Assembly: GCA_965116795.1 (NCBI GenBank) | Contig: OZ220716.1 | Coordinates: 2,314,503 to 2,378,502, forward strand | DNA from: Gammaproteobacteria bacterium | Lineage (GTDB): Bacteria; Pseudomonadota; Gammaproteobacteria; JAJFKG01 | Length of the DNA: 64,000 nt | Direction: 5' to 3' | Part shown: positions 15,214 to 17,295 of the stretch, piece by piece | Layout of the letters: the number at the start of each line of letters is the position of its first letter | Numbering within the stretch: position 1 is the stretch's first letter | Position numbers and translations under genes: made by a program | Notes under the pieces: generated by a model | Databases searched by the model: none | Seen by the model: only the letters and a program-made list of their open reading frames with translations | What the model was told of the DNA's origin: nothing

Positions 15214-17295
15214 CTATTTACCAGGTGGCTTAAGAAATTGCAGCGCAACTTCTTTAGTGGATTGTTCAGATAATTTTTTTCCTTGCACCAGATCAAATTG
15301 GTTATGTTGTCCTGAAGCATTAACATCTTCTGCAACACCTCTGTATGTATTACGTTGACCACCCAAATTAAATCCTGGTCGCCATCCGGACGTTTCACCA
15401 CTGTCAGCAGATTCATGCTCAGATGGACTTGATGTACTTTCACTACTGTCTGATAATGGCAACTGCTTCTTCTTTTTCGCTTCTTTCCCTTCCATTTTTT
15501 TGCTTTTTCCTTTCTTTCTCTTTCTTTCTAGTACTGTTGAATCAGCAAAGAGTGTAGTGCCGCCTGCTCCCTTAGCTAACTGATGTTCTGCACGTTGATC
15601 AGTAATATCTCGATCTTGCATTTCTATATCATCGTCGTCTTCTTCTCCTAACCTTGGCGCACTTGGAATAGGTAATGGTATAGTTGGTGCTAGGATTTGT
15701 CCTCTTTGTAACGATAATTGACTTGATATTGGAGGTAGACTTGGCGATCGTTGATAGGTTATTTCTTGCGATCTCTGTTGCCCATACGATAAAGGCAATG
15801 CACTAGGAGACGGACTTGGTGATGGTGAGCTGAGTTCTTCAATTTTTACAGATGAAACAAGTTCAGGCTGTTGTCCTTGCTGCTGACTATGTTTATTCAT
15901 TTCATGAAGTTTGCGCATATACTTTTCCTTCTCCGGTAGCTTGTCTAATGACTGAATATATAATACTTCAGCCGTGTTTCGCGAATCGCAAATGTCACTT
16001 AACCCACCTTGCTGACTTAGATATTGCAGTCGACTGATAGCATACAAATTAACTAACGATGGTTTCTTCTGCTGATCAAACTGACAGTATTCTTGAAATA
16101 TCTCTAAACATTTAGCTCGAATATAGCCATCAGCAATATTATCTTTATCCTGTTCACTTCTGGTTTGATAGATCTGCAACAAATCCGTTAACAAATCAAT
16201 TGCGCATAACTGTGCCTTTTCTTCTGTTAACTTCTCTGGCCTTATCTGCGCAAACACTGCATTTGCTTTCAGTTCAAGCATGCCTTTATGTTGTCTATAG
16301 TTAGCTACGTCAGATGTAATGCTCTCTCTCAATGTAAACGCAGCATCCATTAAAAGCTGTCTAACATTTTGTACATCAACATACCATTTTTCTATATTAC
16401 CTTTCTTATGAAACGCTTCATAAAAATGTTGGCTACCTTCAATGACATTGGCAACTACTAAACCCGCTGACACCCCAGTGACCGGTATTAACAATCCTGC
16501 GCTCATTGCCATTGAAAAGTTCTTGACTCCCATGGCAAACGCAATGCCTTTACGAAGAAATAAATGACTCTTCTCTTCATCGCTGTCAACTCTGCGTAAT
16601 GCTTGCCACGCCATTTTTGCTTGCACATACAAACTAATGTTGTCTTGTTTCTTTGCAGTGGCTGCAAATTTTTCCAACATGTCTAAAAAAGGAGTTTTTA
16701 CGTCTTCCTTGCGGATGCCTTTCACTCCTGCCCACAACATTGCCTCTAAAAAATAATTCAATGAAACAAGGTGATTCAGTTCCGGCTCAGCTTGTTTAAA
16801 AAACACCTCTAATATTGTTTTGTATCGCTTCTCAGTCATCCAACAATTCTTGTTGCCATAAAATAAGATAATTTGCGCCAGCGCAGCTAATGCTTCGGGA
16901 TGTCCCAAATCATGGCTAGATAAATCATATAGTTTCTTTAAAATTTCTTGGTAATGGATATAGATGCCATCTCTACCTCTAGCACCGGCTAAAATGATGA
17001 GTGCATTAATATCATTCTTTGAAGGGGAAGACTTTGCAACAAGTCGTTCAACTTGCCTTCTGATATCTTCTTTTAAATGCAAAGCTCTAACTGAAGATTC
17101 ATCTGATACCTTGCTAAGTTCAAATACCAAATGAGCATAATCACCGAATGCTTTTTCTTGTAATGGCATTGAGGAAGATGAGGGACTGCTACTGCTAGAA
17201 GACGACGATGGCAAAAGACGTTGATCATCGCTAGCGTGACTATCCACAACTGTTTGTGTTGCGGCCCTATTTGGATTTTCTTCTCCTACTTTCAT
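15214..17295 (-). CDS. Helical (ARM-like) domain protein with C-terminal motif shared with the N-termini of both flanking NLRs; candidate effector
   Basis: 693-aa ORF; helical domain with LEAMLWAGVKGI..YVQAKMAWQALRRVDSDE..WY; disordered linker; NLS-like KRKKGKSKK; terminal FNLGGQRN..SGQHN..VQG motif. Confidence 0.8.
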   Translation of the reverse strand: MKVGEENPNRAATQTVVDSHASDDQRLLPSSSSSSSSPSSSSMPLQEKAFGDYAHLVFELSKVSDESSVRALHLKEDIRRQVERLVAKSSPSKNDINALIILAGARGRDGIYIHYQEILKKLYDLSSHDLGHPEALAALAQIILFYGNKNCWMTEKRYKTILEVFFKQAEPELNHLVSLNYFLEAMLWAGVKGIRKEDVKTPFLDMLEKFAATAKKQDNISLYVQAKMAWQALRRVDSDEEKSHLFLRKGIAFAMGVKNFSMAMSAGLLIPVTGVSAGLVVANVIEGSQHFYEAFHKKGNIEKWYVDVQNVRQLLMDAAFTLRESITSDVANYRQHKGMLELKANAVFAQIRPEKLTEEKAQLCAIDLLTDLLQIYQTRSEQDKDNIADGYIRAKCLEIFQEYCQFDQQKKPSLVNLYAISRLQYLSQQGGLSDICDSRNTAEVLYIQSLDKLPEKEKYMRKLHEMNKHSQQQGQQPELVSSVKIEELSSPSPSPSPSALPLSYGQQRSQEITYQRSPSLPPISSQLSLQRGQILAPTIPLPIPSAPRLGEEDDDDIEMQDRDITDQRAEHQLAKGAGGTTLFADSTVLERKRKKGKSKKMEGKEAKKKKQLPLSDSSESTSSPSEHESADSGETSGWRPGFNLGGQRNTYRGVAEDVNASGQHNQFDLVQGKKLSEQSTKEVALQFLKPPGK

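What the first reader, a model, noticed from the sequence alone, without database searches (positions are those of the whole stretch)
15214..17295. Middle protein looks like the detached N-terminal domain of fungal/endofungal all-in-one NACHT-WD40 NLRs
Seen: helical domain LEAMLWAGVKGIRKEDVKTPF..LYVQAKMAWQALRRVDSDE..FLRKGIAFAMGV..IEG..WY, including a hydrophobic Gly-rich stretch (16435-16548). From recall, this pattern matches the ARM-like domain fused N-terminal to NACHT-pentapeptide-WD40 in Mortierellaceae fungi and their symbiont Mycoavidus. The neighbouring 1562-aa NLR has that family's hallmarks (AQMTGVQFGEYPYL, GLSPDNQQLLEQRGA) but lacks the domain. Inference: a fused NLR split into receptor and effector joined by the shared motif, paralleling HeLo-NACHT versus two-component forms. 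That would identify this uncharacterised domain as an execution domain, possibly membrane-inserting.
Basis: partly seen in the sequence, partly recalled or inferred. Interest (0 to 1): 0.75.

Follow-up and report, generated by a model that had tools for sequence, protein, structure and literature searches.

The report
Split and frameshift-joined bacterial immune receptors
This gene encodes, as a separate protein, a helical domain that other bacteria carry fused to NLR-type immune receptors; it shares a short tail motif, likely a coupling signal, with the neighbouring receptor, and a sister copy in the same genome is joined to its receptor across a likely programmed ribosomal frameshift, as are three other receptor genes.

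Summary
The 693-aa protein hits Pfam ARM_5 above cut-off; its relatives in five other gammaproteobacterial genomes sit in-frame in front of NACHT domains related to the neighbouring 1562-aa NLR, which lacks the domain. A 47-aa beta-rich motif ends this protein and begins that NLR (E 1e-13); in-frame fusions lack it. This is the layout of HET-S/NWD2-type pairs, with a new effector and motif. New here: a paralogue in the same genome runs into its NACHT-WD40 in the -1 frame at C_CCA_AAG-stop-hairpin, confirmed in independent contigs, and three further effector-to-NLR junctions carry in-phase slippery heptamers, two with strong covarying hairpins. Four of seven NLR-like genes would thus make a short effector plus a fused receptor from one mRNA. 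Not shown: amyloid formation, binding, frameshifting in vivo, killing. The fold is a generic alpha-solenoid, not a known pore former; a 27-residue uncharged stretch is the only membrane hint. The genome has Dot/Icm genes, so a host-directed role is a live rival. No orthologous frameshift was found in another species.

The parts
15214..17295 (-). Stand-alone ARM_5 protein, 693 aa: Ser-rich leader, helical domain, disordered linker, basic cluster, C-terminal motif
   Evidence: ribosome-binding site -8.4 kcal/mol
16006..17148 (-). ARM_5-type alpha-solenoid, about aa 50-430 (Pfam match aa 177-261 = 16513-16767)
   Evidence: (mean pLDDT 69.6, 9 sequences)
16441..16521 (-). 27 uncharged residues (aa 259-285), candidate membrane-inserting segment; low confidence in the model
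   Evidence: KD 1.96; paralogue 1.94; pLDDT under 50 over most of it
15457..15525 (-). Lys/Arg-rich cluster ahead of the motif; similar clusters precede the motif in both NLRs and the paralogue
   Evidence: sequence; (aa 579-687 match NLR aa 30-133, E 1.3e-4)
15235..15375 (-). Shared motif, aa 641-687: two 16-residue G-x-x-N units and a helix; candidate polymerising signal
   Evidence: (three strands and a helix, pLDDT 67.5)
18050..22738 (-). NLR1, 1562 aa: motif, NACHT-type NTPase, pentapeptide, WD40 repeats, Glu-rich C-terminus; no ARM_5
22343..22480 (-). Motif copy at the N-terminus of NLR1 (aa 87-132)
   Evidence: E 1.1e-13 with a profile of the two effector-side copies, 8270 ORFs
9949..15075 (-). 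NLR2, 1708 aa: diverged motif, NACHT, helical repeats
   Evidence: NACHT E 1.8e-13; helical repeats by homology to a HEAT-bearing paralogue
14686..14823 (-). Diverged motif-like stretch in NLR2 (weak support)
17296..18049 (.). 754-bp gap between NLR1 and the ARM_5 gene with palindromic repeats and a terminator-like hairpin; the two genes may be transcribed apart

Best explanation
The protein is a free-standing copy of the ARM_5 domain that elsewhere heads NACHT-WD40 receptors, and it likely works as the effector half of an NLR pair: the neighbouring NLR would oligomerise on sensing its trigger, cluster its N-terminal motif, and template the matching C-terminal motif into a beta-sheet polymer that crowds the ARM_5 domains and likely kills or arrests the cell, possibly through the uncharged segment entering a membrane. 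Shown: homology, layout, shared motif, absence of the motif from in-frame fusions. Strongly inferred: the paralogous locus and three other loci make a short effector and a fused effector-NLR from one mRNA by -1 ribosomal frameshifting, the one-gene form of the same design (about 0.75). Inferred by analogy: motif-to-motif coupling (0.7), amyloid type (0.5). Weak: membrane damage as the output (0.35); whether it acts in the bacterium or in a host is open.
For: ARM_5 above cut-off. Outside G000, 6 of 7 ARM_5 ORFs carry an in-frame Walker A; the seventh ends at a masked stretch before a NACHT ORF. A further fused 1638-aa relative, E 5.8e-7, HHalign 97%. NLR1's NTPase region matches 6 of those 7 ORFs. 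The motif is at the effector C-terminus and NLR N-terminus and in 0 of 9 other relatives, the pattern used to define signalling pairs (PMC9815663, passages). Paralogue: motif, C_CCA_AAG, stop, hairpin 6 nt on, NACHT-WD40 in the -1 frame without a credible start; two runs span it with no difference or gap. In-phase C_CCA_AAG occurs at 10 of 583,144 codons, and both of the 132 -1 overlaps that carry it are effector-to-NLR junctions. Junctions c and d: A_AAC_CCC and A_AAA_AAG, hairpins z -6.1 and -5.7, 13 of 13 pairs kept with 2 double changes. C_CCA_AAG and A_AAA_AAG are two of the three most efficient E. coli motifs (PMC4066793, passages). One effector half is an MLKL_N domain, a known death domain, with a doubled motif facing a single receptor-side copy.
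Against: Fold matches are generic HEAT/ARM solenoids (best Foldseek E 4e-3, best Z 11.2), which suggests a scaffold as readily as a killer. The hydrophobic segment is weaker in most fused relatives (21-residue GES peak 0.5-1.4 against 1.9). The motif is equally long on both sides, unlike the two-versus-one pattern of HET-S/NWD2, is Lys-rich (9%), and models as a small sheet with a helix. NLR1 and the gene are 754 bp apart with a terminator-like site between. Two of the four frameshift loci are damaged (an IS in locus a, a second frameshift inside the NACHT of locus b); hairpins at a and b are not significant (13 and 24 of 200 shuffles). No frameshift-joined orthologue in another species; 1 of 77 unrelated NACHT ORFs had an overlapping heptamer. 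NLR1 ends in 7 Glu in 10 residues (top 0.1% of 967 ORFs) and the genome has DotA and DotB.
Confidence: 0.5

Rival explanations
1. Host-directed module: the NLRs, and perhaps this protein, are Dot/Icm substrates that assemble inside a eukaryotic host and mimic or jam its death or immune signalling; the basic clusters would be nuclear-import-like signals.
For: DotA and DotB over cut-off; Glu-rich ends on NLR1 (7 in 10) and the two NB-ARC receptors (4 in 10; 3.5% of ORFs reach 4) (the E-block rule is recalled); six MLKL_N-kinase-like genes and Sel1-SH3-kinase genes; a Legionellales symbiont paper lists NACHT/NLR and MLKL domains among effector candidates (10.64898/2026.04.11.717937, passages).
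Against: This protein and NLR2 have no Glu-rich end (2 and 1 in 10); the motif occupies the C-terminus where a signal would sit. This rival concerns where it acts and is compatible with motif coupling.
Confidence: 0.25
2. ARM_5 is an adaptor, not an executioner: the solenoid binds a downstream partner or the basic clusters, and the pair signals to another enzyme or death protein.
For: All fold matches are scaffold solenoids, importin-alpha among the weak ones; no catalytic family in Pfam or PADLOC.
Against: It fills the slot held by MLKL_N at locus b and by death domains in known pairs; it has a long uncharged segment that pure scaffolds do not need. The importin rows are not significant.
Confidence: 0.15
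3. Debris of decaying all-in-one genes: the junctions are inactivating one-base changes, the window genes are leftover fragments and the motif is a shared linker without a signalling role.
For: Loci a and b are otherwise damaged; no conservation outside this genome; many IS elements nearby.
Against: All four breaks fall between effector and NTPase, each at an in-phase heptamer, three within two codons of the stop; hairpin covariation; a shared cassette at loci with unrelated effectors and NTPases; the window genes are intact, 43% identical to the paralogue, with their own start sites; in-frame fusions have no such linker motif.
Confidence: 0.1

Closest known systems
Pfam ARM_5 (PF23948); NLR_Helical domain of Pezizomycotina, Mortierellomycetes and Mycoavidus (PMC9815663, section and supplement passages)
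   Same: Helical solenoid of similar size, found ahead of NACHT-WD40; sequence match to PF23948 above cut-off.
   Different: Here it is free-standing or frameshift-joined and carries a C-terminal motif; no function is given for it in the passages read. That ARM_5 equals NLR_Helical is inferred from the matching descriptions, not tested.
HET-S/NWD2 and bacterial BASS NLR-effector pairs (PMC9815663 passages; 10.1101/2020.01.06.895854 abstract and section 9)
   Same: Motif at the effector C-terminus and the N-terminus of an adjacent NLR; Gly/Asn/Val-rich, Pro-poor pseudo-repeats; all-in-one forms without the motif exist.
   Different: Effector is not HeLo/Bell; motif about 47 aa with a helix, equal on both sides, no Pfam match; BASS were reported from multicellular bacteria, this is a 2.4-Mb Dot/Icm-bearing gammaproteobacterium; amyloid untested.
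Bacterial -1 programmed frameshifting: dnaX tau/gamma, copA, cso2, IS3-family (PMC5009743 and PMC4066793, passages)
   Same: Slippery heptamer, downstream hairpin, upstream SD-like stretch, a short and a long product sharing an N-terminus; the stop directly after the shift site resembles the reversed dnaX candidates.
   Different: Applied to immune-receptor genes, repeatedly, with different effectors and NTPases; no such case in searches.
Bacterial NLR-related anti-phage proteins (bNACHT, Avs; seen in search listings only)
   Same: STAND NTPase with C-terminal repeats and an N-terminal output domain.
   Different: Those are in-frame fusions as far as the abstracts show; PADLOC has no model for this protein.

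Membership tests
Pfam ARM_5 / NLR_Helical | Profile score above the gathering cut-off | tested here: met
   38.3 bits against 27; paralogue below cut-off (17.3 bits) but 43% identical
Pfam ARM_5 / NLR_Helical | Alpha-solenoid fold | tested here: met
   All-helical model, pLDDT 69.6; HEAT/ARM matches Z up to 11.2, rmsd 3.6 over 175 residues
Pfam ARM_5 / NLR_Helical | Usual position, in-frame ahead of NACHT | tested here: not met
   Stand-alone gene; no NTPase motif, next ORF has its own start. This is the departure being reported.
NLR-effector amyloid signalling pair (HET-S/NWD2, BASS) | Same motif at effector C-terminus and at N-terminus of an adjacent NLR | tested here: met
NLR-effector amyloid signalling pair (HET-S/NWD2, BASS) | Beta-prone G/N/V/I-rich, P/L/K-poor pseudo-repeats | tested here: inconclusive
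   G 17%, N 10%, V+I 10%, P 1%, but K 9%; two 16-residue units, modelled as strands
NLR-effector amyloid signalling pair (HET-S/NWD2, BASS) | Belongs to a described motif family | tested here: inconclusive
   No relevant Pfam hit in 8 motif pieces; HELLF fibril only at E 7.1; BASS profiles not held
NLR-effector amyloid signalling pair (HET-S/NWD2, BASS) | HeLo/Bell-type four-helix effector | tested here: not met
   Domain is an ARM_5 solenoid of about 380 aa
NLR-effector amyloid signalling pair (HET-S/NWD2, BASS) | Fibril formation, cross-seeding and effector toxicity | not testable with these tools
   needs bench work
Bacterial -1 programmed ribosomal frameshift (paralogue and three other loci) | In-phase X_XXY_YYZ heptamer in the overlap, long -1 frame beyond | tested here: met
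   4 of 4 junctions
Bacterial -1 programmed ribosomal frameshift (paralogue and three other loci) | Stable structure a few bases downstream | tested here: inconclusive
   Met at c and d (z -6.1, -5.7), weak at a (z -1.75), absent at b
Bacterial -1 programmed ribosomal frameshift (paralogue and three other loci) | SD-like stretch 9-14 nt upstream (PMC5009743) | tested here: inconclusive
   b 11 nt, c 13 nt, d 15 nt at -6 to -7 kcal/mol; a weak; crude scan without a background
Bacterial -1 programmed ribosomal frameshift (paralogue and three other loci) | Conserved across species | tested here: inconclusive
   No orthologous junction found; the one close NACHT (same-genus genome) has another upstream gene and its own Met
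Bacterial -1 programmed ribosomal frameshift (paralogue and three other loci) | Trans-frame product made in vivo | not testable with these tools
   no raw RNA reads or proteomics
Dot/Icm-translocated effector | Secretion system in the genome | tested here: met
   DotA, DotB over cut-off; the rest of the machine not checked
Dot/Icm-translocated effector | Glu-rich C-terminal signal (recalled rule) | tested here: not met
   2 Glu in the best 10 of the last 30 residues for this protein; met for NLR1

The most novel reading that the evidence does not exclude
This lineage builds NLR signalling units from one mRNA: a reusable -1 frameshift cassette yields an excess of free effector bearing a polymerising motif plus a minority of fused receptor, fixing the receptor-to-executioner ratio at the ribosome; the window locus is the same design fully split into genes, which marks ARM_5/NLR_Helical, shared with fungi, as an execution domain switched on by a new motif family.
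Probability: 0.4. Interest if true: 0.88.

Novelty: new variant of a known kind. Interest (0 to 1): 0.76.

Why it matters
It gives a direct handle on an uncharacterised N-terminal domain of fungal and bacterial NLRs: a natural stand-alone form with a candidate trigger motif can be assayed alone. It adds a third architecture between all-in-one and two-gene NLRs, joined by ribosomal frameshifting, which annotation would read as pseudogenes or unrelated neighbours. It extends motif-coupled NLR signalling from multicellular bacteria to a small Dot/Icm-bearing genome and poses the question whether such modules defend the bacterium or act on its host.

Tried and rejected
Word-index protein searches found nothing at near or longer lengths; the exhaustive search gave 5 proteins: the paralogue, two pieces of this protein, one fused relative and one likely chance TPR match. 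Atlas: no usable hit for the domain; DUF4765 at 0.85 for effector c is a lead only. Metagenome scan with the domain: 0 of 383 candidates. Motif profile in 400 genomes: the only outside hit was RpoC, chance. Effector c not found in 3 genomes. The hairpin-arm pattern matches 96 of 151 genomes and is too loose to mean anything. Fold searches of the motif: best Z 2.8, HELLF at E 7.1, no conclusion. The DNA-level check of junctions b, c and d is open. No RNA holder listed; contig depths were not used. An assembly error at junction a was considered and rejected, though both spanning runs are of one study and may include the source sample. No in-frame or -1 continuation follows the window gene. Earlier scan notes: none found. 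bioRxiv supplements (BASS profiles) and 2 supplementary files of PMC9815663 were not seen and could hold this motif.

Full report
Setting. The window lies in a single-contig 2.45-Mb gammaproteobacterial genome, G000, 97.7% complete, with DotA and DotB over cut-off; a Legionellales-like host-associated life is my inference. Three minus-strand genes sit between a sucB-like gene and an epimerase-like gene (names by eye): a 1562-aa NLR (NLR1), the 693-aa gene of the finding, and a 1708-aa NACHT protein (NLR2).

The observation. All quoted peptides are present. The protein matches Pfam ARM_5 at 38.3 bits, cut-off 27. ARM_5 was found in 6 of 401 genomes of the class; outside G000 there are 7 ORFs, 6 with an in-frame Walker A and one ending at a masked stretch just before a NACHT ORF. 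The best of these matches the window domain at E 7.5e-9 and 29%; an exhaustive search adds a fused 1638-aa protein (E 5.8e-7; HHalign 97% over 192 columns). NLR1's NTPase region matches 6 of the 7 ORFs, so it is of the kind that normally carries this domain, yet it lacks it. PMC9815663 (section and supplement passages) describes a helical NLR N-terminal domain in Pezizomycotina, Mortierellomycetes and Mycoavidus without a function; I take it to be ARM_5 from the description only.

The domain. The model (9 sequences, pLDDT 69.6) is all helical; Foldseek gives nothing at E 0.001 and the wide search gives HEAT/ARM solenoids at Z up to 11.2, within the range of common helical arrangements. Residues 259-285 are uncharged, hydrophobicity peak 1.96, matched in the paralogue and weaker in most fused relatives, and poorly modelled. 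That allows but does not show membrane insertion.

The motif. Residues 641-687 recur at aa 87-132 of NLR1: a profile of the two effector-side copies finds it at E 1.1e-13 among 8270 ORFs, the next hit being at 0.46. It consists of two 16-residue G-x-x-N units and a helix, modelled as three strands and a helix. NLR2 has a diverged copy with weak support. None of 9 other relatives carries it, and it was not found in 399 other genomes. Effector-end plus NLR-start is the criterion used to find amyloid signalling motifs (PMC9815663 passages; 10.1101/2020.01.06.895854 abstract and section 9), but no known family matched and binding could not be modelled.

The paralogue and the frameshifts. At G000:2267297-2269348 a 43% identical paralogue ends, like the window protein, just after the motif; its last codons read C_CCA_AAG then stop, and a NACHT-WD40 85% identical to NLR1's NTPase region continues in the -1 frame (locus a). 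Contigs of two runs span the junction with no difference or gap (one study, possibly the source; the other two runs show no listed spanning piece). Three more loci have the same build: MLKL_N then NACHT-HEAT with C_CCA_AAG 18 codons before the stop (b, G000:1201520), and two unknown effectors then NB-ARC-TPR with A_AAC_CCC (c, 2185020) and A_AAA_AAG (d, 2179494) at the stop. That is 4 of 7 NLR-like genes; the rest are the two window NLRs and one in-frame fusion. In-phase C_CCA_AAG occurs at 10 of 583,144 codons; of 132 -1 overlaps 14 have a heptamer and the 2 with this one are a and b. Of 1700 in-phase heptamers 18 open a -1 frame of 200 aa or more, and the three strongest downstream folds among them are c, d and a; b is ordinary. 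Hairpins start 5-6 nt after the heptamer, share their base at a, c and d, score z -6.1 and -5.7 at c and d but only -1.75 at a, and keep 13 of 13 pairs between c and d with two double changes (two paralogues only). Start codons ahead of the NTPases have ribosome-binding sites no stronger than -3.1 kcal/mol, against -5.6 to -8.4 for the window genes, except two GTGs at d that lie past its motif. In E. coli C_CCA_AAG and A_AAA_AAG are two of the three best motifs, the first reaching 54% with a stimulator (PMC4066793 passages). Effectors b, c and d carry a different beta motif twice and their receptor halves once; the receptor copy is the top outside hit for d (E 0.03) and by eye only for b and c. 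Against: a is cut by an IS and b has a second frameshift inside its NACHT; no second species shows the junction; among 77 NACHT ORFs in 80 loci, 13 upstream overlaps included one heptamer.

How it most likely works. A triggered NLR oligomerises and clusters its motif; the motif recruits and orders the matching tails of free effector, concentrating ARM_5 domains, which then stop or kill the cell. Frameshifting would supply free effector and fused receptor at a set ratio from one mRNA; the window locus does so with separate genes. NLR1's motif is nearer the paralogue's (26 of 47) than its neighbour's (18 of 47), so NLR1 probably arose from a locus-a-like gene by loss of the domain and may also trigger the still intact short product of locus a. 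Layout and signals are shown; coupling, polymer type, output and site of action are inferred. The main rival is a host-directed role through Dot/Icm: NLR1 has an extreme Glu-rich end and a Legionellales symbiont preprint lists NACHT and MLKL domains among effector candidates (passages), with no mention of frameshift or amyloid in its main text.

Novelty. Motif-coupled NLR pairs and -1 frameshifting are each known (PMC5009743 passages). Searches, read as listings of an open-access library, showed no frameshift-joined NLR and no stand-alone ARM_5 effector. I file it as a new variant of a known kind that works like HET-S/NWD2 without meeting its membership tests. Interest 0.76.

Noticed in passing
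L001:10164-15349 (G000:2264163-2269348, -): Paralogue joined to NACHT-WD40 at C_CCA_AAG-stop-hairpin; the WD40 region is cut by an IS66-like element (name by eye) with the tail at G000:2260253-2261530.
   Followed up: yes
L007:3986-14868 (G000:2175985-2186867, -): Two tandem unknown-effector / NB-ARC-TPR pairs with heptamers at the stop, covarying hairpins and a doubled-versus-single beta motif; effectors have no Pfam match and a Gly-rich uncharged stretch.
   Followed up: partly
L002:6370-10606 (G000:1198369-1202605, -): MLKL_N with doubled beta motif, C_CCA_AAG, then NACHT-HEAT with a second frameshift inside the NACHT.
   Followed up: partly
G000:1102720, 1160290, 1208102, 1489991, 1551776, 1634091: Six MLKL_N + kinase-like + Sel1-like genes, the layout of eukaryotic MLKL, in a bacterium.
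   Followed up: no
G000:2220906-2226533 (+): 1876-aa NB-ARC protein with an in-frame N-terminal domain bearing a lipase-type serine motif (by eye).
   Followed up: no
L002:982-5010 and L001:2781-5822: A Sel1-SH3-kinase protein and an FG-GAP repeat protein beside the NLR loci.
   Followed up: no
window 17673-18014: Palindromic and direct repeats resembling a miniature inverted-repeat element between NLR1 and the ARM_5 gene.
   Followed up: partly
window about 15262-15268 (-): An in-phase run of seven A inside the motif's last codons; its -1 frame stops within four codons and no hairpin was noted, probably chance.
   Followed up: partly
G057 contigs C8 and C2: 55 matches to the NLR1 NTPase region in over 30 open frames, many tandem NACHT-WD40 genes without an N-terminal domain around one ARM_5-NACHT gene without WD40: a possible one-effector, many-sensor array.
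   Followed up: no
window 10000-14000: NLR2 lies in a GC dip (34-35% against about 41%), suggesting separate acquisition.
   Followed up: no
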